From the NCBI GenBank assembly GCA_016176465.1, contig JACOXD010000010.1, positions 7,497 through 71,496 of the forward strand: 64,000 nucleotides of DNA, given 5' to 3'. Positions 1 through 63,639 of this stretch are shown here, one piece after another; within the stretch, counting starts at the first letter, position 1; each line of letters starts with the position of its first letter. Source of the DNA: Candidatus Daviesbacteria bacterium. Its GTDB lineage: Bacteria > Patescibacteriota > Microgenomatia > Daviesbacterales > UBA10151. The notes beneath the pieces were generated by a model. That model had not been told where the DNA came from and did no database searches. It saw only the letters and a program-made list of their open reading frames with translations. The position numbers and the translations under genes are program-made.

Positions 1-228
1 TTTCTTGGAAGTATAGTAAGGGACCTGGGTTTAATTGCTGTTAGAGGAGTTGCGCAAGAAGTTCCACCCACTCCAACTCCGACTACATCTCCTAATGATA
101 ATGCAACTAGGAACTCAGAAGATTTAAGAGAATGGTTGGAGGCGCGCAAATTTCCGCTAGCGATAATGGTTGGGTTGTTAATATCTTGTGGGGTATTTGC
201 TCTTCGTGATCACATTGAGAATCCTTAA
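1..228 (+). CDS. C-terminal fragment of a gene starting upstream of the window; hydrophobic C-terminal segment; product unknown
   Basis: Open frame from position 1 to TAA at 226-228; translation ...REWLEARKFPLAIMVGLLISCGVFALRDHIENP. Confidence 0.4.
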   Translation, partial: FLGSIVRDLGLIAVRGVAQEVPPTPTPTTSPNDNATRNSEDLREWLEARKFPLAIMVGLLISCGVFALRDHIENP

Positions 229-296
229 ATTAATTCTTTAATCTATATGCCTAAAGTTACTCTAGTTGAACCTCAAATGGAAAACTTGTATTCTCT

Positions 297-355
297 GTCA
301 TTCCCGCGGAAGCGGGAATCCATTTAAATAGATTCCGGATCAAGTCCGGAATGAC
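297..355. repeat. Palindromic repeat element: GTCATTCC ... GGAATGAC inverted repeat enclosing two hairpins (TTCCCGC-GGAA-GCGGGAA and CCGGA-TCAAG-TCCGG)
   Basis: Perfect self-complementarity read directly; core related to the in-frame repeats in recX, copA and the reductase gene. Confidence 0.6.
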
Positions 356-376
356 AATATAGACTATAATTCAAGT

Positions 377-1057
377 GTGAAGATTACCCAGGTAGAACCT
401 CAAAAAACCCTTCGATTTCGCTCAGGGCAAGCCCCCAAAAGATTTAATATTTTTTTAGATGGGCAGTTTGCTTTTGGGGCAGATGAAGATTTGGTAGTGG
501 AATATCGTTTATTACCTGGAAAACAGCTTGACAACTCGGAGTTGGAAAGGTTGATTTTTGAGGCTGAGGTTGGAAAATTAATGGAGAGGATGTATGGGCT
601 GTTTAATATAAGACAAAGAAGCGAAAAAGAAATTAGAAACTATTTGAGGAACTTATCTTTTAAAAGAAAAATAAGGACCCGCTTCGCCTCGCGCTCTGAA
701 AATATTATAGCGCTTGCTCGCGGAACCTTGCCTTTTGCTACGCAAAACGTTAAAGAATTTGCTAAAGCTTGGGTGGAGGCAAGGAGAAAATCTAAGAAAA
801 AAGGGAAAATTGCTTTAAAAAGTGAGCTATATCAAAAAGGGATTAGTAGAGAAATAATCGAGGGAGCGTTAAGCGTTAAGGGTGAAGGAGAAAGTGAAGA
901 AGAACTGGCAAAGCAAGCTATAGAGAAAAAGTTAAAAAAATGGACTAGCCTCCCCTATTTGGAAAAAAAGAAAAAGATGTATGAATTTTTAATGAGGAGA
1001 GGATTTGAATACAGTGTTGTTAAGAATGTGGTTGATAATTACCTTAAAAAAGAGTAA
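377..1057 (+). CDS. recX: Regulatory protein RecX
   Basis: GTG start; three-helix-repeat protein with RecX-like pattern (YLRNLSF..., ELYQKGISREIIEGAL, MRRGFEYSVVKNVV); contains an in-frame palindromic insert at ~675-726. Confidence 0.7.
   Translation: MKITQVEPQKTLRFRSGQAPKRFNIFLDGQFAFGADEDLVVEYRLLPGKQLDNSELERLIFEAEVGKLMERMYGLFNIRQRSEKEIRNYLRNLSFKRKIRTRFASRSENIIALARGTLPFATQNVKEFAKAWVEARRKSKKKGKIALKSELYQKGISREIIEGALSVKGEGESEEELAKQAIEKKLKKWTSLPYLEKKKKMYEFLMRRGFEYSVVKNVVDNYLKKE
675..726. repeat. In-frame GC-rich repeat (reverse orientation, CGCTTCGCCTCGCG / CGCTTGCTCGCG) inside recX, encoding ~RTRFASRSENIIALARG
   Basis: Local GC spike in AT-rich gene; motif shared with 51816-51846, 52128-52154 and 56514-56559. 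Confidence 0.5.
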
Positions 1058-1110: not shown

Positions 1111-1302
1111 AATATTACAAACTGAAGCACGAACAGGTCCTTATAGTAGTCAGAAGTTTGGAAGAAGATATGCAAACTTTTAAGTTTCATTTTTATCTCT
1201 CCCCTAGCTCCGATTAAATAGGAGATCTTCTGATGTCATCTTGAACGATTTGAGTGAAAGATCTGCAAGTTAATTTAGAGATTCTTCGCTAAAACGCTCA
1301 GA

Positions 1303-2718
1303 ATGACAAAAAAGATCATGAAAAAAACATTTGGACCAGCTAAAAATACAGATGAGCAAGTTAATGCTCAACCCTCCGCTATTCCGGTGATCACTGATGC
1401 TGCGCTTAAGGACGTTAGTACGCAAGCTTCGCTTATTACCAAAGAAACAGAGCTAGCTAAAAGAGAAGGGATTTTAGAAGAGAGAGAGCGACAAATTGAG
1501 GAAAAATTAAAAATCCTTGATCAAAAATTAGAGCAAGTAGAAAAAGTAAGAAAAGATTTACTAAGTAAACTTGAAAAATCCTCCAAGATGTCTGCAGAGG
1601 ATGCTCAAAAAATACTTTTAGAAAGTGTTGAAAAAGATTTAGCTTCTGAAATATCTAAAAAAGTAAAAGAAGCAGAGGATCAAATCAAACTCCAAGCTGA
1701 TGAAAAAGTAAGGGAAATTTTAGCAGATTCTATGCTTCATGGAGTCACTGATGTAATCAGCGAATTTACAACCTCAAAAGTCACACTGGAGGATGAAGAA
1801 CTAAAAGGAAGGATTATTGGAAAAGAAGGAAGGAATATCCGTTCTTTTGAACAAGCAACAGGGGTTGACGTAGTTATGGATGATGAATCCCCTAATAATT
1901 TAATTTTATCTTCCTTTGATCCTGTAAGGAGAGAAATTGCTAAGGTATCTTTAGAGAGATTAATTGCTGATGGAAGGATTCAACCCCAAAGAATTGAAGA
2001 GATTGTAGAAAAAACTAAAGAAGATATTGAAAAGTTAATGTTACAAGCTGGAGAGAAACTTTGCCATGATGTTGGAATTTATAACATGCCAGTTGAGTTA
2101 ATGGCGCTACTCGGAAGATTTAAATATAGATACTCATATGGGCAAAATATGATTCAACATACTTTGGAAGAAACCCAAATTGGAGTTGAAATTGCCAGGC
2201 AAATTGGGGCTGATGTTAATGTAGTTAAACTTGGATGCTTGTTGCATGATATTGGAAAAATTTTAACTGATTGGGATGAAGGAACTCACGTTGAAAGAGG
2301 AGTGCAGCTTGCTAAAAAGTTTGGATTCCCGGAAAAAGTTGTTAATTGTATTGCGGAGCATCATGAAGACCAGCCATTTTCTGCAGTTGAATCTATCTGT
2401 GTATATTTGGGAGATGCAATTTCAGGTGGTCGCCCTGGCGCTCGCCATGAAAATGTTCAAGATTACATAAAACGTTTGGAAGATATCGAGCGGATTGCTA
2501 CTTCTTTTGAAGCAGTGGAGAAAGCTTTTGCAGTCCAAGCAGGAAGAGAAGTTAGAGTTGTAGTTTTTCCAGATAAAATCTCAGATGATGAGTTACCAAA
2601 ACTTGTACATGATATTGGTACCCAAATTCAAAAAGAAGTTATGGTTCCTGGTGCTGTTAAAATTACTGCTATTAGAGAAACAAGAGCTTCTGATCAATTC
2701 TTAACTTCAGGTGGGTAA
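1303..2718 (+). CDS. rny: Ribonuclease Y (KH domain + HD domain)
   Basis: KH motif GRIIGKEGRNIRSFEQATGVDV; HD motif LLHDIGK...HH; typical RNase Y C-terminus; no obvious N-terminal TM helix. Confidence 0.9.
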   Translation: MTKKIMKKTFGPAKNTDEQVNAQPSAIPVITDAALKDVSTQASLITKETELAKREGILEERERQIEEKLKILDQKLEQVEKVRKDLLSKLEKSSKMSAEDAQKILLESVEKDLASEISKKVKEAEDQIKLQADEKVREILADSMLHGVTDVISEFTTSKVTLEDEELKGRIIGKEGRNIRSFEQATGVDVVMDDESPNNLILSSFDPVRREIAKVSLERLIADGRIQPQRIEEIVEKTKEDIEKLMLQAGEKLCHDVGIYNMPVELMALLGRFKYRYSYGQNMIQHTLEETQIGVEIARQIGADVNVVKLGCLLHDIGKILTDWDEGTHVERGVQLAKKFGFPEKVVNCIAEHHEDQPFSAVESICVYLGDAISGGRPGARHENVQDYIKRLEDIERIATSFEAVEKAFAVQAGREVRVVVFPDKISDDELPKLVHDIGTQIQKEVMVPGAVKITAIRETRASDQFLTSGG

Positions 2719-3609: not shown

Positions 3610-5091
3610 GTGACAAGATCGAACAAATATCTCCTACTAATTCTCATTACTTTACTAGCAGCGCTACTTCGTTTAAACAACTTTCAATACGAATATGGTT
3701 TCTACGGCGATCAAGGACAGGATTTATTAGCAATTAATGATTGGATTAGAACTAATCAGGTTCCACTTCGGGGAATACTTACAAGTATCGGAAGTTTTTA
3801 TAATGGGCCAATCTATTACTACTTGATTTTTCCCCTAGTAATTTTTTTTGACGGTGATCCAATTGCGCCAGTAATTCTTTTTTTGATTGCAGGAATTCTC
3901 ACTACCCCCTTGGTATTTTACATGGTTGAAAAGTATGTTGATTCCTGGACTGCATTTATTAGCTCGGTACTTATTGCTCTCTCCTCTCATACAATCTTTA
4001 TATCTAAAGGAGCTTATGCACCTAACCTGCAAGTTTTTATATTTATTCTAATGTTTTATTTTTTCTTAAATTTTATTAAAACTGATAAAGCATTAAGTTT
4101 ATTCCTAGGATATCTGGTTATAGGAGTTGGTGTACAGTTTCACTATACGTTTTTTGCAAACCTATTTAGTTTTAGTTTGTTGCTTTTAATTTTAAAAAGA
4201 AAGAAAATAGTTTCAGCTAGGATGATACTATGTGCGATTGGAGGATTTTTACTAACCTTACTCCCTTTTATACTGGGCCAGTTTTTTTATAACTTCGCAG
4301 ATTTCAAAGGTATGGCATCATATATCATAAACGGAAATGATCAATCAAGAATAATAACCTTTCAGAGCATTACAGATAGGTTGGTTTTCCCATTTTTAAT
4401 TTATTTTAGAGTTGAACTAGTTCCTTGGTTTCTAACCTATTTTTTAAAACCAATTTTTTTACTCATCTTAATATTATGTTTTGTTATTGGTTTTACAAAA
4501 AACAGACTAGCGTCTTTTACAAAAGTTGTTTTATTTATTTTTTTTGCGAGTTTAACTTTGGTAGTTGTAGGTAATTTAAATTTTTGGTGGTGGTATAACG
4601 ATTTCTATTCTCTTACATCAATTTTTATGCTAGCGATTGTCTGTTCATACCTTATTCAATATGGCAAATTAAAATTCCTTGGATTATTTATATTTTCTGT
4701 TTTAATATTTTGGGAAATCGTGGGACTACCCTTTGCATACGGAATTTTAAGATCACCTCAGATAGCAAAGGAGATAGCCAGTATAATTAAAGCAGACATT
4801 GCTAAAAATAAAGATAAAGAAAGTTACGGTATCCTGGCGTTAAATCCAATTGCTCCATCCCAAGGTTTTGAATATAGATATTTGCTTGAAAAAGATGGTT
4901 ACCGTACAAGAAATGCTGTGGATTTAGCGGATGCAGATTATGTGATTGTAGAGGGTAAGGAAAGTAGAGGCATTAAAATAGATACTAAGTTAAAGATTAA
5001 TAAAATAAATACTTTAAACTTTAATGATAAAAGTCTTTTAATTAAATACGGCGAAATTTATAAAGTAGAAAGAAATCAAGAAACCCAGTAG
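3610..5091 (+). CDS. GT-C fold glycosyltransferase, ArnT/PMT_2-like (family 39/83) polytopic membrane protein
   Basis: GTG start; >10 predicted TM helices; N-terminal loop motif YGDQGQD...; architecture of dolichyl/undecaprenyl-phosphate-sugar dependent transferases. Confidence 0.6.
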   Translation: MTRSNKYLLLILITLLAALLRLNNFQYEYGFYGDQGQDLLAINDWIRTNQVPLRGILTSIGSFYNGPIYYYLIFPLVIFFDGDPIAPVILFLIAGILTTPLVFYMVEKYVDSWTAFISSVLIALSSHTIFISKGAYAPNLQVFIFILMFYFFLNFIKTDKALSLFLGYLVIGVGVQFHYTFFANLFSFSLLLLILKRKKIVSARMILCAIGGFLLTLLPFILGQFFYNFADFKGMASYIINGNDQSRIITFQSITDRLVFPFLIYFRVELVPWFLTYFLKPIFLLILILCFVIGFTKNRLASFTKVVLFIFFASLTLVVVGNLNFWWWYNDFYSLTSIFMLAIVCSYLIQYGKLKFLGLFIFSVLIFWEIVGLPFAYGILRSPQIAKEIASIIKADIAKNKDKESYGILALNPIAPSQGFEYRYLLEKDGYRTRNAVDLADADYVIVEGKESRGIKIDTKLKINKINTLNFNDKSLLIKYGEIYKVERNQETQ

Positions 5092-48318: not shown

Positions 48319-48377
48319 ACTCTTAGCTAGTAATCAGGTACCTTCTTTGATAAAATTTACATAGCTAAATTAACATT

Positions 48378-48446
48378 GCGGGATCGTCTAACGGCAGGAC
48401 AACGGACTCTGAATCCGTTTATCTAGGTTCAAATCCTAGTCCCGCA
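48378..48446 (+). tRNA. tRNA-Gln (anticodon CUG), no encoded CCA
   Basis: Acceptor GCGGGAU/GUCCCGC, anticodon stem ACGGA/UCCGU with loop CUCUGAA, T-arm GGUUCAAAUCC. Confidence 0.7.
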
Positions 48447-48496
48447 GCACGAAGAGTTAGCGGGGTGCTAAGGGTCCAAGGTTAGCCTAGCAGTCT

Positions 48497-48509
48497 TAGT
48501 CCCGCAGCT
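48497..48509. repeat. tRNA-Gln 3'-end fragment copy (TAGTCCCGCAGCT)
   Basis: 12-nt identity to tRNA 3' acceptor/T-stem region, 50 nt downstream of the tRNA. Confidence 0.4.
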
Positions 48510-48535
48510 TTTTGAGGTATGCCCAGTGTCCTATG

Positions 48536-48985
48536 TTAGAACTTTCTTGGTATACTTTCTTCAGTGAATACATCTCCAATTGTCTCTTTTGCTTTATGGA
48601 CTTGCCCAAGGAGTTTTCCTAAAGCAAAGCATTGATCATTATTTAGTTCGCTTTTAGAGGCATTTGATCCAGAGATAAAATTAAATAAAGCTGCAGGATA
48701 CTTATCTAAATAAAAAATTAATTCTCCCTTTTTATTTTTGATAGGATGGGTAATATTTTTTATTCCACAATTATTAAAAAGCCTATATGTTAAATCAAAA
48801 CGCAATTTGTATTCTTCTAACATAATATGAATCTTAAAAAAGAATGTCTCTTTTTCAGTTTCTACTTTATAACCCCAAGACGCCTCACCTCCAATTACAT
48901 GGGTGAGGTTAGTTATGTTTATTCCATAACTTTCTTCAATCTTTGCTTTAATTACCTTTTTATCAATATTGGGTTCAGTTAACAT
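48536..48985 (-). pseudogene. N-terminal fragment (149 aa) of an aminoglycoside/choline-kinase-type phosphotransferase (APH family)
   Basis: N-lobe pattern; protein about half expected length; ends next to tRNA-fragment repeat. Confidence 0.45.
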
Positions 48986-49028
48986 AATATAAGGAATAAC
49001 AGACGCTTCAATCCATTATAATATTCTT

Positions 49029-49307
49029 GTGTCTTACTCTGTCTATATTTTAAGAACTTCATCGAACACTTTATATATTGGGCAAACCAATAATTTAGAA
49101 AAAAGAATTAAAGAGCATAAAAATAAAAAAGGTAAGGGAGCAAAATATATTAGGTCTTTTTCCTCATTTGAATTAGTTTACTTTGAAAAACTCAAAACTA
49201 GATCTGAAGCAATGAAGAGAGAATGGCAACTAAAGGGATGGACAAAAGCCATGAAAGAGACTTTAATCAACTTGGGAAGCAAGTATTTATCCAAGTCCCG
49301 CAGCTAA
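49029..49307 (+). CDS. GIY-YIG nuclease superfamily protein (YhbQ/UPF0213-like)
   Basis: VYILRTSSNTLYIGQTNNLEKRIKEH GIY-YIG motif; 3' end formed by direct repeat. Confidence 0.7.
   Translation: MSYSVYILRTSSNTLYIGQTNNLEKRIKEHKNKKGKGAKYIRSFSSFELVYFEKLKTRSEAMKREWQLKGWTKAMKETLINLGSKYLSKSRS
49278..49305. repeat. Left 28-bp direct repeat AGCAAGTATTTATCCAAGTCCCGCAGCT (att-like, contains tRNA-Gln 3' motif)
   Basis: 27/28 identical to 63612-63639. Confidence 0.65.
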
Positions 49308-50305: not shown

Positions 50306-52735
50306 ATGCCAGCAGTGAGCAAGCTCTCTCCTTTGGAGATAAAAAGAACATTTTCAGTACAAGGAATGCACTGTGCTTCCTGCGTGAGGCTTATTGAAAG
50401 AGCTTTGAGTAGAACTAATGGCATATCAGAGGCAAATGTTAATCTTGCAACTAACAAAGCCACCATCACTTATGATCCTAAAAGTGTTAATGATGAGCAA
50501 ATAGAATCTTCTGTATCCAATATAGGTTATAAAGCATTATTAGACGAGGAAGTTAAATCAGAAGATGATGAGAAAAAAGAAAAACAAAAAGAATTAAGAA
50601 AGTTACAGCATAAAGTTGGTATAAGTTTATTTTTAGGATTACTAATTTTATGGGGTTCTTTTCCGGGTTTAATGAATACTGCCCCAGCTATTTTAAGAAA
50701 TTTTTGGATACAGCTTCTCCTTGCTACCCCAGTTCAATTTTGGGCAGGTTTAGATTTTTATAGAGCTACTATTCCAGCATTAAAACATAGAACAGCTAAC
50801 ATGGACACTTTAGTGGCAATTGGTACAACTGTCGCTTATAGTTATTCAGCTTTTGTCACAGCCCTTCCTCAGGTAGTTAAAAGTATTGGTATTGATCCTC
50901 TCCCTTACTTTGATGTGGCAACTATAATTATTGGTTTAATACTTCTTGGTAGATATTTTGAGGCTAAAGCTAAGGCTGGTACGTCTGAAGCAATTAAAAA
51001 ACTAATAGGTTTGCAGGCAAAAACAGCCAGAGTTTTGAGACTCTCCTCTGTCATCTCGAACGATAGTGAGAGATCTGCAGATTCTAATCTAGAGATTTCT
51101 CTCCGCCAGCTGGCGGATCGAAATGACAAAAGTGAAACAAGTGATGAGAGCAAATATTTAGAAGTAGATATTCCTATAGATCAGGTGGTTATAGGAGATA
51201 TCATTAGAGTACGTCCTGGAGAAAAAATTCCAGTTGATGGAGAAATTTTGGAGGGAGAATCCTCAATTGATGAATCAATGATTACGGGAGAAAGTATTCC
51301 AGCTGACAAAACTAAGGGCGATACAGTCGTAGGTGCAACAATTAATAAATCAGGAACATTTACTTATAAAGCTACCAAAGTAGGACAAGAGACTATGCTT
51401 GCCCAAATTATTAAACTTGTTCAAGAAGCTCAGGGTTCAAAAGCTCCTATCCAAAGAATTGCAGATCTTATTTCCTCTTACTTTGTACCTATTGTCATAA
51501 TACTTGCTTTTGCTACCTTTGGTATCTGGTATGTATTTGGTCCAACCCCAGCTCTTTTATACGCACTTCTAAATACTGTAGCAGTTTTAATTATTGCCTG
51601 TCCTTGTGCCATGGGACTGGCTACACCAACAGCTATTATGGTAGGTACAGGAAAGGGTGCAGAGCATGGAATTTTAATTAAAGATGCAGAAAGTTTAGAA
51701 ACTGCCCACAAAATTAAGACGGTCATCTTTGATAAAACTGGAACTTTAACAAAAGGAAAACCAGAAGTGACAGATATCATTGCGAGGAGTGAAATGATGA
51801 AGCAATCTATAAAGAGAAGATCGCCACGCTTCGCTCGCGATGGCATACTTCGTTTGGCTGCTTCAATAGAAAAAGGCTCTGAACATTCTTTAGCTGAGGC
51901 AATAGTCCAAGAAGCTGAAAAACAAAATATTCAACTGGAACCTGTCACAAAGTTCAAAGCTATTGCAGGGCATGGAGTGGAAGGAGTTGTTGATGGAAAG
52001 CAAGTTTATTTTGGAAACCGAAAATTAATGGAAAGAGAAAAAGTAAGAATCCTAAAACTTGTTCAGGATGACATAGAAAGGTTAGAAAGTGAAGGTAAAA
52101 CTGTAATGATATTAGCAACCTCCTCCCGTCATTCTGAGCGAAGCGAAGAATCTCAACTTATTGGTCTTGTGGCTGTAGCAGATACCGTCAAAGATACTGC
52201 TAAAGAAGGTGTAAAAGCTTTGCAGAAAATGGGTATAGAAGTTGTTATGATCACTGGAGATAACACAAGAAGTGCTAAAGCTATTGCAGATCAGGTAGGT
52301 ATTAAAAGAGTTTTGGCAGAAGTACTACCAGATCAAAAAGAAGCTGAAGTAAGGAAGATTCAAGCGGAGGGCAAAAAAGTGGCAATGGTTGGAGATGGGA
52401 TTAATGATGCACCCGCCTTAGCAGCAGCAGATATTGGAATAGCTATGGGAAGTGGTACGGATGTGGCAATTGAGGCAGCGGATATTACCTTAATAAATAA
52501 GGACCTTAAATCTGTAGCTCAAGCTATTAACCTCTCCAAAAAGACAATGAGAACTATAAAATTAAATCTTTTTTGGGCATTTGGCTATAATGTTTCACTG
52601 ATTCCTGTAGCAATGGGAGTTTTATATCCTTTTTGGGGAATATTGTTAAATCCAATCTTTGCCTCAGTTGCTATGGCCACAAGTTCTATATCAGTTGTTG
52701 GAAACTCATTACTTTTAAAAAGAGTAAGGATTTAA
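50306..52735 (+). CDS. copA: Copper-translocating P1B-type ATPase
   Basis: N-terminal HMA GMHCASC, CPC motif [26 protein letters not shown]; contains at least three in-frame low-complexity/palindromic inserts. Confidence 0.9.
51040..51140. repeat. ~100-bp in-frame palindromic insert in copA (includes perfect 14-bp palindrome CCGCCAGCTGGCGG) encoding ~35 aa [36 protein letters not shown]
   Basis: Segment has no counterpart in canonical CopA between TM4 and the actuator domain. Confidence 0.5.
51816..51846. repeat. In-frame GC-rich repeat (reverse orientation, CGCTTCGCTCGCG) in copA N-domain encoding ~[11 protein letters not shown]
   Basis: Shares core with recX insert. Confidence 0.5.
52128..52154. 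repeat. In-frame repeat GTCATTCTGAGCGAAGCGAAGAATCTC in copA encoding [10 protein letters not shown]
   Basis: 29/32 identical to 56521-56552; GTCATTC head shared with element at 297. Confidence 0.6.
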
Positions 52736-55771: not shown

Positions 55772-55804
55772 TGGAGGGAGGTGCAAAAGGTTATTAATAA
55801 AAAC

Positions 55805-57193
55805 ATGAATAACAAATATGATGTTATTGTAATTGGGGGAGGATCGGCAGGGTTTTCTGTTTTGGAGCAGATTGCCCATAAAGGCTTAAAGATTGCCCTG
55901 GTGGAAAATAGAAAATTGGGAGGATCTTGTCCTAATTTTGCCTGTGTACCCTCTAAAGCTTTAATCAAATGTGCTGAAGTTCTACACACAGCTTTGAATG
56001 CTGATAAATTTGGTATAAATGTTTCTAATATAGGATTTGACTGGAAAAGAGTACAAGAATTTAGAGCAGGTAAGGTAGCTAATACTGCTGCTGCAGAGTC
56101 TGAACAAGATTTAAAAGAAAAAGAGGTTGATCTTATTTGGGGCACTGCCAAGTTTATTTCAGCTTCTGAGATTGAAGTAGATGGGAAGATTTATTCAGCT
56201 GATAAGTTTGCCATTACCACCGGCTCAAGGCCTTTGGTTTTACCAATTGATGGTTTGGAAGAGATTGGTTTTTTAGATTCTGATCAAGGTCTGCAAATAG
56301 ATAAATTGCCTAAATCCTTAACTATACTAGGTGCTGGGCCTGTGGGAATTGAAATAGCTCAGATGTTTGCCAGATTTGGGGTCAAAGTAGCAGTGATCAA
56401 TAGAGGTGGACAGATACTTGGTAGAGAAGAACCAGAAGTGGCAAATCTCGTTCAGGGATTTTTAGAAAAAGAGGGAGTGGAGTTTTTATTAAATGCTCAA
56501 GTTAAAAAAGTGATGCTTCAGCGTCATCCTGAGCGCAGCGAAGGATCTCAAAATCTGAAGCTACTGGAGATAGAAGTCAGTGGGCAGAAAGGAACAATGG
56601 AAGTGGAGCAAATTCTGGTTGCTCCAGGTAGGATTCCCAATATTGACATGCTTGATCTTAAAAAAGCTGGAGTGAAAACTTATGAGAGAGGAATTGTGGT
56701 TGATGAGTACATGCAGACCTCACAGCCTCACATCTATTCTGCTGGAGATGTGGCAGGAATCATGCTTTTTACCCATGCAGCATCTTATGAGGGCTTTATT
56801 ATTGGACAAAACCTCTTGGGCAACAAAATGGAGGTAGATCATAAGGTGATACCAAGAGGAACGTTTTCTGATCCGGAGGTAGGTAGCGTGGGAATAATGG
56901 AAAAAGAGGCCAGGGACAAGGGTTTGAAAGTACAAACTGCTTTGATGGATTATACAGGAGGGAGAGGAGATATCCAGGATGACCCCCTAGGATTAACTAA
57001 GGTGACTGTTGATGCTAAAACCAGACAAATCCTTGGGGCATCAGTAGTGGGTAGAGGCGCTGCTGAGTTTGTGCATATGATAGCCATGGCCATGCATCAT
57101 AAAATTAAAGTTGATGATTTAGATACTCTTGTTTATGCCTTTCCCACTTATGCAGAAGGGTTAGCTGGAATTACTTCCTATCTTAAGGATTAG
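55805..57193 (+). CDS. Class I pyridine nucleotide-disulfide oxidoreductase (MerA/Lpd-like; lacks NmerA and C-terminal Cys pair)
   Basis: GGGSAGF, redox CxxxxC GGSCPNFACVPSK, HPxE-type dimer interface; ATG 55805 preferred over GTG 55781; carries in-frame repeat at 56514-56559. Confidence 0.8.
   Translation: MNNKYDVIVIGGGSAGFSVLEQIAHKGLKIALVENRKLGGSCPNFACVPSKALIKCAEVLHTALNADKFGINVSNIGFDWKRVQEFRAGKVANTAAAESEQDLKEKEVDLIWGTAKFISASEIEVDGKIYSADKFAITTGSRPLVLPIDGLEEIGFLDSDQGLQIDKLPKSLTILGAGPVGIEIAQMFARFGVKVAVINRGGQILGREEPEVANLVQGFLEKEGVEFLLNAQVKKVMLQRHPERSEGSQNLKLLEIEVSGQKGTMEVEQILVAPGRIPNIDMLDLKKAGVKTYERGIVVDEYMQTSQPHIYSAGDVAGIMLFTHAASYEGFIIGQNLLGNKMEVDHKVIPRGTFSDPEVGSVGIMEKEARDKGLKVQTALMDYTGGRGDIQDDPLGLTKVTVDAKTRQILGASVVGRGAAEFVHMIAMAMHHKIKVDDLDTLVYAFPTYAEGLAGITSYLKD
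56514..56559. repeat. In-frame repeat GCTTCAG-CGTCATCCTGAGCGCAGCGAAGGATCTCAAAAT-CTGAAGC encoding QRHPERSEGSQNLK
   Basis: Flanked by 7-bp inverted repeat; homologous to copA insert at 52128. Confidence 0.6.
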
Positions 57194-63557: not shown

Positions 63558-63611
63558 TAGGGTTTCTGATTCCTACTGCGCACCAGTTCCTGACAAGCTT
63601 TTCTTTTGCAA

Positions 63612-63639
63612 AGCAAGTATTAATCCAAGTCCCGCAGCT
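63612..63639. repeat. Right 28-bp direct repeat AGCAAGTATTAATCCAAGTCCCGCAGCT (att-like)
   Basis: 27/28 identical to 49278-49305. Confidence 0.65.

What the first reader, a model, noticed from the sequence alone, without database searches (positions are those of the whole stretch)
247..400. Palindromic element sits between a duplicated, degenerate recX 5' end
An orphan start ATG-CCT-AAA-GTT-ACT-CTA-GTT-GAA-CCT-CAA (MPKVTLVEPQ) at 247-276 is followed by a ~60-bp nested-hairpin element (297-355). The real recX start follows at 377 with GTG-AAG-ATT-ACC-CAG-GTA-GAA-CCT-CAA (MKITQVEPQ). The ~24-nt coding segment is therefore present twice (18/24 identical) on either side of the element. This looks like an insertion footprint (a long target duplication, or a duplicated gene 5' end) of a small mobile palindrome, with the gene start re-created downstream.
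Basis: seen in the sequence. Interest (0 to 1): 0.6.

Follow-up and report, generated by a model that had tools for sequence, protein, structure and literature searches.

The report
Imported hairpin cassette gives recX new start
In this Candidatus Daviesbacteria genome, a roughly 130-bp block of foreign DNA sits inside the first codons of recX, carrying two inverted hairpin repeats of the Neisseria NTS/dRS3 type and a spare copy of the gene's start, so the original start is orphaned but the gene stays intact.

Summary
An orphan recX start lies at 247-276 (MPKVTLVEPQ). A two-hairpin palindrome lies at 297-355. The annotated start is GTG 377 (MKITQVEPQ). The 24-nt repeat matches at 18/24 and has no other match that good in the 64-kb window.

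The palindrome is not an unknown element. It is an inverted pair of NTS/SRM-type hairpins, the class recognised by GIY-YIG Ssn single-strand nucleases. Hairpin 1 matches the Neisseria dRS3 definition exactly. Related hairpins are about 7-fold enriched in the window, and several lie in frame inside genes.

The duplication is not a target-site duplication. A second Daviesbacteria genome (RecX 63% identical) carries the same block at the same codon. That block has 2 substitutions in 133 nt, while its orphan copy and flanks are diverged and host-like. About 140 other recX loci have neither the element nor the duplicate. The downstream copy was therefore imported together with the hairpins. It joined the resident gene at a 9-12-bp identity (GAACCTCAA).

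A near-identical genome pair (L033/L067) shows the same module, hairpin pair plus KITQ-type 5' end, swapped by ordinary recombination.

The enzymology and the first origin of the duplication are inferred, not shown.

Verdict: a new variant of known kinds, of moderate interest.

The parts
1..228 (+). 3' end of the upstream gene (stop TAA 226-228). It is not recA, unlike most relatives, where the order is recA-recX-rny.
   Evidence: Translation; synteny in relatives.
247..276 (+). Copy A: the orphaned resident recX start, ATG plus 9 codons (MPKVTLVEPQ). The orphan ORF continues to TAA at 325-327.
   Evidence: The peptide is identical to the true N-terminus of ortholog P0047 and matches the consensus MPK(I/V)TSVEPQ of orthologs.
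268..277 (+). Left copy of the 10-bp direct repeat GAACCTCAAA. The tract shared with L002 begins here.
277..296 (+). 20-nt left arm of the imported block (ATGGAAAACTTGTATTCTCT). Its origin is unknown.
   Evidence: Identical in L002 and found nowhere else in 153 loci or the window. There were no hits in viral contigs.
297..320 (+). Hairpin 1: an NTS/SRM-type hairpin in forward orientation. It is an exact match to dRS3 (ATTCCC-N8-GGGAAT) and matches the 28-nt NTS consensus at 25/28.
   Evidence: definitions from PMC11893778.
321..330 (.). AT-rich spacer CATTTAAATA between the two hairpins. It contains the stop codon of the orphan ORF.
   Evidence: Other hairpin pairs have comparable AT-rich spacers.
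331..355 (-). Hairpin 2: an SRM-type hairpin on the minus strand (GTCATTCC-GGA-CTTGA-TCC-GGAATC). Relative to hairpin 1, the stem interior is changed in a compensating way.
   Evidence: The TCAAG loop is shared with Francisella FtrB and with L141.
356..376 (+). 21-nt leader of the imported start, AATATAGACTATAATTCAAGT. TATAAT at 365-370 lies 6 nt before the GTG. It may be a -10 box for a leaderless mRNA (inferred).
   Evidence: ATAGACTATAAT is identical to the native leader in front of copy A in L002. The consensus scan called no full sigma-70 promoter here.
377..403 (+). Copy B: the imported recX start, GTG plus 8 codons (MKITQVEPQ). It is now the working start of recX.
   Evidence: 27/27 identical to L002. 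The KITQ type occurs on unrelated RecX bodies.
395..404 (+). Right copy of the direct repeat GAACCTCAAA. Near-identity with L002 ends at 409.
407..436 (-). Degenerate SRM-type GC-rich insert, in frame in recX (TLRFRSGQAP). It sits at a site that holds at least 6 different inserts among orthologs and none in most of them.
377..1057 (+). recX (226 aa).
   Evidence: Pfam RecX_HTH2/3. 100% identical to NCBI RecX of Candidatus Daviesbacteria (P0001).

Best explanation
**What the element is.** The palindrome is a gene-less inverted pair of NTS/SRM-class hairpins. In sister genomes, repeats of the same class flank a small GIY-YIG gene at the same recA/recX junction.

**How it got here.** The pair did not insert on its own. 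It arrived as part of a block of about 127 bp, window 277-403. The block consists of a 20-nt left arm, the hairpin pair, a 21-nt leader containing TATAAT, and GTG plus 8 recX codons. It came from another Daviesbacteria recX allele. In many species a hairpin pair lies a few nucleotides upstream of the recX start, so such alleles are common.

**How it joined.** On the right, the block recombined with the resident gene through recX homology. On the left, it joined through only the last 9-12 bp of the resident 5' end (GAACCTCAA). This genome has no recA homology upstream, so the module was added instead of substituted. The resident ATG and its 9 codons were left as an orphan that runs into a stop inside the element.

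**Consequence.** RecX is now made from the imported GTG, and its N-terminus is of a type that occurs naturally. Deleting exactly between the two GAACCTCAAA repeats would restore a canonical MPKVTLVEPQK... gene.

**Shown:** the identity of the hairpins, the foreign origin and shared junction of the block, and exchange of this module between genomes.

**Inferred:** the joining mechanism (short-homology or break-repair recombination, possibly after DNA uptake), how the first duplication arose, and the use of TATAAT and GTG.
For: 1. **Same block, same site, distant genome.** L002 (GCA_964459095.1) has RecX 63% identical to the window's. It carries an orphan ATG CCC AAG ATT ACT TCA GTA GAA CCT CAA, followed by the same 20 nt, hairpins, leader and GTG AAG ATT ACC CAG GTA GAA CCT CAA. 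Window 268-409 differs from L002 by 2 substitutions and one 24-nt insertion in the loop of hairpin 1. By contrast, copy A matches at 14/21 before the repeat and the upstream DNA cannot be aligned.
2. **Background divergence is high.** Identical codons among identical residues between window and L002 are 9/9 for codons 1-12, 28/37 for codons 13-60, and 43/91 for the rest.
3. **Copy A is the resident copy.** The recX body of L002 is closest to L003 (50-55 of 60 nt per segment). L003 has an A-type start (MPKVTSVEPQ), no element and no duplicate. The first 54 nt of L002's gene are instead closest to the window (50/54, against 39/54 for L003).
4. **The join lies in different places within the repeat.** In L002, copy A equals copy B over GTAGAACCTCAA (12 nt). 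In the window the match covers GAACCTCAA (9 nt). This fits homology-guided joins better than one fixed cut.
5. **Empty sites are common.** About 140 distinct recX loci lack both element and duplicate. Orphans occur only in window, L002 and L069.
6. **The module moves.** L033 and L067 are 98-99% identical in recA and in recX from about codon 55 onward. They differ across about 270 nt that swap [hairpin pair + MKITQVEPQ] for [no hairpin + MPKITSVEPQ].
7. **KITQ-type starts are polyphyletic.** Only 4 of 16 have a KITQ-type nearest neighbour, where 2.2 are expected by chance. They are also linked to hairpins within 200 nt upstream: 7/16 against 5/97, Fisher p = 1.6e-4, not corrected for phylogeny.
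8. **Hairpin identity.** Hairpin 1 is an exact dRS3 match and matches NTS at 25/28. Family-type hairpins number 14 in the window against 2.06 expected. SRM-GIY-YIG-SRM units lie between recA and recX in L041 and L058.
Against: - Only two genomes carry this particular block, so independent insertion and a single origin followed by transfer cannot be fully separated.
- The block was not found in any other context. The metagenome scan gave 0 hits and the viral scans gave 0 hits. No donor or master copy is known, and the 20-nt left arm is unexplained.
- For two genomes to share the same left junction, the donor must already have carried the duplication. The first origin is therefore unexplained.
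- Nine to 12 bp is very short for RecA-type recombination.
- No recombinase or nuclease has been tied to the event. The boundaries of the block do not coincide with where an Ssn nuclease would cut, which is a few nucleotides 5' of each hairpin.
- The third case, L069, has a different 47-nt insert and no identical core (GAGCCACAG against GAACCGCAA). It may be a local tandem duplication instead.
- The 5' third of recX is unusually conserved at synonymous sites in all pairs compared, which blurs the right-hand boundary.
Confidence: 0.55

Rival explanations
1. Nuclease-driven or recombinase-driven site-specific cassette. The block is a non-autonomous mobile unit that is copied or integrated specifically at the recX sequence ...GTNGAACCTCAA|AAA. 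One route is break repair after cleavage by a trans-acting nuclease, for example a GIY-YIG enzyme, as in intron-less homing. Another is integration of a small circle. The block carries a substitute 5' end so that the host gene survives.
For: The junction is the same in two diverged genomes, and the tract starts exactly at the repeat. Identity falls off gradually on the recX side, 100% then 87%, 82% and 76%, like a co-conversion tract. Copy B differs from A-type starts mainly at synonymous or conservative positions next to the junction, as immunity variants do in homing systems. GIY-YIG genes flanked by the same hairpins sit at this junction in L041 and L058, and a GIY-YIG gene lies at 49029-49307 in the window. 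The topology is that of attL/attR with a gene-end copy.
Against: There is no ORF in the 127 bp. Characterised Ssn enzymes cut single-stranded DNA next to the hairpin, not coding duplex DNA. The join position differs between the genomes, 9 against 12 nt. Only two carriers were found among about 140 loci, and none in the metagenome or viral scans.
Confidence: 0.15
2. Single ancient origin, inherited vertically. The duplication arose once in a common ancestor. The cassette is held constant by selection, for example as a regulatory hairpin and promoter. Copy A drifts, and most lineages lost the cassette by deletion between the direct repeats.
For: The junction is identical in window and L002. Precise loss through the 10-bp repeats is mechanistically easy.
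Against: Only 2 substitutions in 133 mostly non-coding nt, against near-saturated synonymous sites (43/91), is hard to reconcile with constraint. Family members vary freely in stem, loop and spacer. Differences between the two A copies are synonymous or fall at positions that vary among working RecX proteins, which suggests recent function. L002's closest relative by gene body, L003, has an intact A-type gene. Many independent precise losses would be needed.
Confidence: 0.12
3. First reader's model. The hairpin element inserted by itself and generated a long (about 24-30 bp) target duplication or local tandem duplication, and the copies have since diverged.
For: The duplicates flank the element in direct orientation. 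L069 may be a local tandem duplication of codons 2-16, because the sequence before its copy B resembles codons 11-16.
Against: Copy B is the same in different genomes, while copy A tracks the host. In L002, A and B differ in blocks, not evenly. Other hairpin pairs in the window and in relatives have no flanking duplications. The 20-nt arm and the 21-nt leader are not part of a palindrome.
Confidence: 0.07
4. The arrangement is kept because it regulates recX. The orphan ORF would act as a leader peptide. The hairpin pair would act as a transcription or translation barrier, or as an FtrB-like small RNA. This concerns why the arrangement is retained, not how it arose, so it could hold alongside the best explanation.
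For: Rfam FtrB (an expressed Francisella sRNA) matches 274-374 at 40.9 bits, E = 1e-5 for the region. Hairpin pairs lie 4-21 nt upstream of the recX and rny starts in many species. The orphan frame is preserved in L002 despite a 24-nt loop insertion. In L069 the orphan's stop overlaps the new ATG as ATGA.
Against: The FtrB score is below the gathering threshold (66 bits), and FtrB does not hit the other pairs. No terminator or full promoter was predicted. The hairpins occur in both orientations and inside ORFs, which points to a DNA-level element. No expression data are available.
Confidence: 0.15
5. Assembly artefact: a chimeric join of two strains' recX alleles.
For: Both records are metagenome-assembled genomes, and the region contains repeats.
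Against: Sequence shared at the junctions is only 9-15 nt, shorter than usual assembler k-mers. Two independent assemblies of different organisms give the same junction, each with its own private differences: the 24-nt loop insertion and 2 substitutions.
Confidence: 0.03

Closest known systems
Neisseria NTS / dRS3 repeats and Ssn-related motifs (SRM), targets of GIY-YIG single-strand nucleases (Chenal et al. 2025, PMC11893778)
   Same: Hairpin 1 is an exact ATTCCC-N8-GGGAAT and matches the NTS consensus at 25/28, including the oriented GTC 5' flank. The family has many copies. In relatives (L041, L058) the hairpins flank a single-domain GIY-YIG gene of about 90 aa, in the same 'NTS-ssnA-NTS' layout.
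   Different: The host is a CPR/Patescibacteria bacterium, a group the paper does not mention. The published SRM search string misses these copies because of one loop position. Here the units often come as tight inverted pairs, frequently sit in frame inside genes, and in this case travel with a piece of a host gene. No cleavage data exist.
Integrative elements that carry a copy of the target gene's end, such as phage 21 and e14 in E. coli icd and islands in tRNA 3' ends (from established knowledge, not tested here)
   Same: Short direct-repeat core at both junctions. The resident gene end is orphaned. The element-borne copy differs mostly at synonymous or conservative positions and keeps the gene intact. 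Empty sites occur in relatives.
   Different: The block is only about 127 bp and has no integrase. It replaces the 5' end, bringing its own start codon and possible promoter. The join position is not fixed to the nucleotide.
Rickettsia palindromic elements (RPE) and REP/BIME pairs (from established knowledge)
   Same: Short GC-rich palindromic repeats are scattered through a small AT-rich genome. Other copies in this window are inserted in frame in the ATPase, the oxidoreductase and recX, as RPEs are. Inverted pairs resemble BIMEs.
   Different: The copy at 297-355 is not read through, because it contains a stop. No RAYT-type transposase or GTAG motif is present. The sequence family is different.
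Francisella sRNA FtrB (Rfam RF02748; PMC3091763)
   Same: Same composite: an NTS hairpin, a UUUAA spacer, a second hairpin with a UCAAG loop, and a UAAUU tail. The FtrB Northern probe contains GTCATTCCCGCGTAGGCGGGAATC.
   Different: 40.9 bits against a gathering score of 66. The 5' stem of the model is not formed. There is no evidence that the region is transcribed here.
Intron-less homing of free-standing GIY-YIG/HNH endonuclease genes in T-even phages (from established knowledge)
   Same: A selfish DNA lies next to or inside a conserved gene. Identity of flanking sequence falls off gradually. The carried allele has variant nucleotides near the junction.
   Different: The block contains no nuclease gene. 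A duplicated gene start is not a feature of known homing events.

Membership tests
dRS3 (Neisseria duplicated repeat sequence 3) | [quoted passage not shown] | tested here: met
   Exact match at 300-319. With one mismatch allowed, 2 hits were found against 0.25 expected. Definition from PMC11893778.
NTS (Neisseria transformation sequence) | CGTCATTCCCGCGMAVGCGGGAATCYRG, with at most 1 mismatch as used by the authors | tested here: not met
   296-323 has 3 mismatches: the first base, one loop base and the last base. The core GTCATTCCCGCG...GCGGGAATC is identical.
SRM (Ssn-related motif) | Match to the degenerate string HGTCWYN(0-2)YYVSBRHN(0-5)WNVSBRGN(0-2)RNCYNB | tested here: not met
   0 hits in the window. 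Hairpin 1 fails only because its loop has 4 nt (GGAA), which shifts one constrained position.
SRM (Ssn-related motif) | Oriented hairpin (GTC + A-Y-Y-Y stem ... R-R-R-T + C) present in many copies, above chance | tested here: met
   14 copies in the 64-kb window against 2.06 expected (maximum 7 in 200 randomisations). Stem interiors differ but stay paired.
SRM (Ssn-related motif) | Spatial association with a single-domain GIY-YIG (ssn) gene flanked by the repeats | tested here: inconclusive
   Met in related genomes. L041 and L058 have hairpin-GIY-YIG-hairpin between recA and recX (PF01541, E = 1e-14 to 1e-15). In the window, a GIY-YIG gene lies at 49029-49307 but is not flanked by hairpins, and its nearest solved relatives are UPF0213 proteins. 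Assignment to cd10448 could not be checked.
SRM (Ssn-related motif) | Cleavage of the single-stranded forward strand by the cognate Ssn nuclease | not testable with these tools
   This is a biochemical assay.
Rfam FtrB (RF02748) | Score at or above the gathering threshold (66 bits) | tested here: not met
   40.9 bits at 274-374. Other hairpin pairs are not hit.
MITE/IS-type insertion with target-site duplication | Flanking direct repeats made from the target, so identical when formed and specific to each insertion | tested here: not met
   Copy B is identical in window and L002, while copy A differs. Other hairpin pairs have no flanking repeats.
Integrative element carrying a surrogate gene end | Core direct repeat at both junctions, with the element-borne copy keeping the ORF intact | tested here: met
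   GAACCTCAAA at 268-277 and 395-404. GTG 377 gives a full-length RecX whose N-terminus matches natural forms such as L001 and L044.
Integrative element carrying a surrogate gene end | Encodes its own integrase or recombinase | tested here: not met
   There is no ORF within 277-403 apart from the read-through of the orphan.
Rickettsia-palindromic-element-like in-frame insertion | The element is translated as part of the host protein | tested here: not met
   The orphan frame stops at TAA 325-327. Other copies in the window do meet this feature: 51050-51127 and 52128-52152 in the ATPase, 56523-56547 in the oxidoreductase, and 407-436 in recX.
Programmed translational bypass (T4 gene 60 type) | Matched take-off and landing codons, with a stop directly after take-off and a gap of about 50 nt | tested here: not met
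   The CAA/CAA codons match, but the next codon is AUG and not a stop, and the gap is 127 nt. A normal start at GTG 377 suffices.

The most novel reading that the evidence does not exclude
The block is a new kind of non-autonomous mobile cassette. It consists of an inverted pair of nuclease-recognised hairpins plus a 'spare first exon', meaning a leader, a start codon and the first 8-9 codons of its target gene. It spreads into recX by break-induced copying or short-core integration triggered by a trans-acting GIY-YIG (Ssn-like) enzyme. It avoids harming the host by replacing the gene's 5' end, not by splicing as introns and inteins do. The KITQ-type start would then be the cassette's immune allele.
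Probability: 0.15. Interest if true: 0.8.

Novelty: new variant of a known kind. Interest (0 to 1): 0.55.

Why it matters
- It places the recently described NTS/SRM hairpin system (Ssn nucleases, Neisseria dRS3) in the Candidate Phyla Radiation. There these repeats pepper coding regions and sit at gene starts.
- It shows that such hairpins can carry a functional gene start with them. The result is mosaic 5' ends of a DNA-repair regulator across species, plus an orphaned start. This mode of gene-start turnover is easily misread by annotators.
- If the cassette proves to be actively targeted, it would be a selfish-element strategy distinct from introns, inteins and integrase-borne islands. It would also give the Ssn family a testable role outside Neisseria.
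- In practical terms, the two GAACCTCAAA repeats predict an excision allele that can be searched for in population data.

Tried and rejected
- **Published SRM regular expression.** It gave 0 hits in the window, so I used a structural pattern instead.
- **Collection scans for the cassette.** The right arm GGAATGACAATATAGNCTATAAT gave 0 hits in metagenome contigs. The central and left-arm patterns gave 0 hits in viral contigs.
- **Protein search with the first 67 residues**, to find more KITQ...TLRFRSG carriers. It returned only 16 short fragments and was not useful.
- **Exact-protein look-up of the window RecX.** It is not on record.
- **Target-site duplication.** Rejected; see the rival explanations.
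- **Copy A extending further.** I asked whether the 20-nt arm and hairpin 1 are a diverged copy of recX codons 11-24. The similarity is too weak, and the spacer is a typical hairpin-pair spacer.
- **Unequal recombination between the upstream hairpin pair and the in-gene hairpin at 407-436.** Their orientation and sequence do not match well enough.
- **Extended terminal inverted repeats** (ACTTGTATT/AATTCAAGT). These are seen only as a weak outer stem.
- **Translational bypass or splicing.** No supporting features were found.
- **Intrinsic terminator or full sigma-70 promoter in 230-400.** None was predicted.
- **Homology between the genes upstream of recX in L002 and L003.** None was found, so the left flank gives no information.
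- **FtrB as a general detector of hairpin pairs.** It hits only the window copy.
Full report
**1. The observation**

The window (34.7% G+C) comes from a Candidatus Daviesbacteria (CPR/Patescibacteria) genome. The ORF at GTG 377..1057 is 100% identical to an NCBI RecX of that taxon and has the RecX HTH2/HTH3 domains.

- ATG 247 followed by nine codons (MPKVTLVEPQ). The frame runs on to TAA at 325-327.
- A palindromic element at 297-355.
- The annotated start, GTG 377 (MKITQVEPQ).
- The repeat 253-276 against 380-403, matching at 18/24.

The match is not a chance event. No other position in the 64 kb reaches 18/24. recX is the only one of 52 long ORFs with such an upstream copy of its own codons 2-9. 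The element folds far better than shuffled sequence, with z about -4 as RNA or DNA.

**2. What the palindrome is**

It is two copies of one hairpin unit, in inverted orientation, separated by 10 AT-rich bases:
- Plus strand, 297-320: GTCATTCC-CGC-GGAA-GCG-GGAATC.
- Minus strand, 331-355: GTCATTCC-GGA-CTTGA-TCC-GGAATC.

The ends are conserved. The inner stems differ but remain paired.

A full-text search for the core sequence led to Chenal et al. 2025 (PMC11893778). That paper describes the Neisseria repeat dRS3 (ATTCCC-N8-GGGAAT) and its longer form, NTS (CGTCATTCCCGCGMAVGCGGGAATCYRG). NTS is the binding site of SsnA, a 94-aa GIY-YIG nuclease. SsnA cuts only single-stranded DNA, a few nucleotides 5' of the hairpin. 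Related 'SRM' motifs flank ssn genes in many phyla in an IS-like layout, NTS-ssnA-NTS.

Hairpin 1 is an exact dRS3 and matches NTS at 25/28. The published degenerate SRM string misses it because of one loop position.

A structural pattern (GTC + AYYY ... RRRT + C) finds 14 copies in the window against 2.06 expected:
- Further inverted pairs at 1235-1307, just upstream of the true rny start at 1318, and at 51050-51127.
- Single copies at 52128-52152 and 56523-56547.
- Several copies are translated in frame inside a P-type ATPase and an oxidoreductase, as Rickettsia palindromic elements are.

Rfam's only sub-threshold hit over the element is Francisella sRNA FtrB (40.9 bits, gathering score 66). 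The Northern probe for FtrB contains an NTS hairpin. The resemblance therefore reflects the shared repeat, not family membership, and FtrB does not hit the other pairs.

**3. Comparative evidence on the duplication**

Orthologous RecX proteins mostly begin MPK(I/V)TSVEPQKK, which is like the orphan copy A. A minority begin MKITQVEPQK, which is like copy B.

I collected about 150 recX loci, roughly 140 of them distinct. An orphaned 5' end exists in only three: the window, L002 (the same contig as L006) and L069.

L002 is decisive:
- Its RecX is only 63% identical to the window's.
- It has the same architecture and the same intervening DNA.
- Window 268-409 differs from L002 by two substitutions and a 24-nt nested hairpin in the loop of hairpin 1.
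- Before the shared GAACCTCAA, copy A matches at 14/21. The upstream DNA is unalignable and belongs to an unrelated gene.

Synonymous sites between the two recX genes are near saturation in the 3' two-thirds (43/91 identical codons among identical residues) but 9/9 in codons 1-12.

The body of L002's gene is closest to L003, which has an intact A-type start and no element. Its first 54 nt are closest to the window. So copy A is the resident start, and copy B came in with the hairpins. This rules out a target-site duplication.

The two genomes also differ in how far copy A equals copy B: 12 nt in L002 and 9 nt in the window. This suggests the left join formed by pairing within this short identity and not at one fixed phosphodiester bond.

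**4. The module moves between genomes**

RecX proteins with the KITQ start do not group together when only the protein body is compared. Only 4 of 16 have a KITQ nearest neighbour, where 2.2 are expected.

They are enriched for SRM hairpins within 200 nt upstream of the start: 7/16 against 5/97, p = 1.6e-4, without phylogenetic correction.

In many species the hairpin pair sits between the upstream gene and recX, 4-21 nt from the start codon. The same holds for rny. In L041 and L058 the hairpins enclose a GIY-YIG gene at exactly this junction.

The cleanest case is L033 against L067. They are 98-99% identical in recA and in recX from about codon 55 onward. A tract of about 270 nt between those points is only 50-75% identical. 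It exchanges [hairpin pair + ATG AAA ATA ACT CAA...] for [no hairpin + ATG CCA AAA ATT ACT TCA...]. That is ordinary homologous replacement of the junction module, with crossovers in recA and in recX.

**5. Proposed mechanism**

Where recA lies upstream in both partners, the module is substituted. In the window and in L002 the gene upstream of recX is not recA and differs between the two genomes, so there is no left-hand homology.

The product is what one expects if the incoming DNA is anchored by recX homology on the right and closes on the left at the only available identity, the end of the resident 5' segment (GAACCTCAA). The module is then added, and the resident start is left stranded.

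The same topology would result from three other routes:
- Campbell-type integration of a small circle.
- Break-induced copying that anneals at the repeat.
- Action of a site-specific enzyme.

I cannot tell these apart.

Because both genomes share the same left junction and the same 20-nt arm, the donor must already have had the duplicated form. The very first origin of the duplication is therefore unexplained.

L069 is an independent event with a different 47-nt GC-rich insert and no identical core. The sequence in front of its copy B resembles recX codons 11-16, so it may be a local tandem duplication.

**6. Likely consequence**

GTG 377 is the only start that yields the conserved N-terminal strand. 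TATAAT at 365-370 lies 6 nt upstream, as it does in L001, where TATAAT is followed by 7 nt and then GTG. This fits a leaderless transcript. No full promoter or terminator was predicted, however, and no expression data exist.

The orphan encodes a bona fide RecX N-terminus, identical to that of P0047, but runs into a stop within the spacer. Deleting between the two 10-bp repeats would regenerate MPKVTLVEPQKTLRF..., a canonical gene.

**7. Context**

recX in this clade is unusually exposed to these elements:
- The position after VEPQ(K)(K) carries at least six different GC-rich in-frame inserts among orthologs. The window's version is TLRFRSGQAP at 407-436.
- A second element at 675-752 is 85% identical to an in-frame insertion at the same codon in a RecX that is only 57% identical.
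- The recA-recX interval holds different unrelated genes in different species.

**8. Novelty**

The following are all known: the hairpin class, in-frame palindromic insertions, and mobile DNA that brings a replacement gene end. What appears new is the combination. A gene-less block of about 127 bp pairs SRM hairpins with a substitute start for recX, is shared almost unchanged by two distantly related CPR genomes at the same codon, and forms part of a recombining junction module.

I rate it a new variant of a known kind, with interest 0.55. A targeted, nuclease-driven 'spare first exon' cassette remains possible, at a probability of about 0.15.

Noticed in passing
window 675-752 and 1061-1142: A GC-rich element of about 78 nt is read in frame inside recX (RTRFASRSENIIALARGTLPFATQNV). 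It is 85% identical over 72 nt to an in-frame insertion at the same codon in L070/L071, whose RecX is only 57% identical. In the window the next 26 canonical codons (the rest of HTH1) are missing, so the protein length is unchanged and RecX_HTH1 scores only partially. An inverted copy, 70% complementary, lies just after the recX stop.
   Followed up: partly
window 48377-49307 and 63606-63639: The 3' 11 nt of tRNA-Gln(CTG) at 48377-48448 (AGTCCCGCAGC) recur at 48498, 49294 and 63628, where 0 are expected. They look like nested att-type repeats of small islands. Between them lie a 149-aa ORF with no Pfam match (48536-48985, minus strand) and a 92-aa GIY-YIG gene (49029-49307). That gene is 38-44% identical to the hairpin-flanked GIY-YIG genes of L041 and L058, and its nearest solved structures are UPF0213 proteins.
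   Followed up: partly
window 51050-51127, 51813-51861, 52128-52152 (in ORF 50306-52735); 56523-56547 (in ORF 55781-57193): SRM-type hairpins, including a complete inverted pair, are translated in frame inside a P-type ATPase and a pyridine-nucleotide-disulfide oxidoreductase-like ORF. Typical peptides are RHSERSEES and RHPERSEGS. This resembles Rickettsia palindromic elements.
   Followed up: partly
window 404-436; orthologs in A1 and P0002-P0120: The site after recX codons 10-12 is an insertion hot spot. At least six unrelated GC-rich in-frame inserts occur among orthologs (TLRLRSGQAP, NLPAGPLRRSFSEASRQVH, SSKGRSAYGGKN, SSYAKASERRGI, SASRRT, and a double TLRLLRQSSGQVRSGQGP). Most orthologs have none.
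   Followed up: partly
window 1235-1307 and 1318; L002 about 4150-4217; L003 about 1510-1576; L041 about 3790-3859: Inverted hairpin pairs sit 7-11 nt upstream of the true rny start (M[KQ][KR][TS]FGP) in several species. In the window, the longest-ORF start at ATG 1303 lies inside the hairpin and is probably wrong. ATG 1318 matches the orthologs.
   Followed up: partly
L041 2880-2960: Downstream of the GIY-YIG unit, a half-hairpin unit of about 22 nt (GAGATGACAGAGAAGTTTAGYYC) is repeated in tandem 4-5 times just before recX.
   Followed up: no
L001, L002, L003, L068, L070 (recA-recX interval): The interval between recA and recX holds different, unrelated genes in different Daviesbacteria: a 158-aa ORF, a 102-aa ORF, a NYN-domain gene, a YafQ toxin pair, or GIY-YIG units. 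The junction appears to be a general hot spot for gene insertion.
   Followed up: no
recX codons 13-60 (window 413-556) against L002 and L003: Synonymous codon identity is 73-85% in the 5' third of recX in all three pairs, against 47-63% in the rest. This suggests either frequent recombination of the 5' region or nucleotide-level constraint.
   Followed up: no
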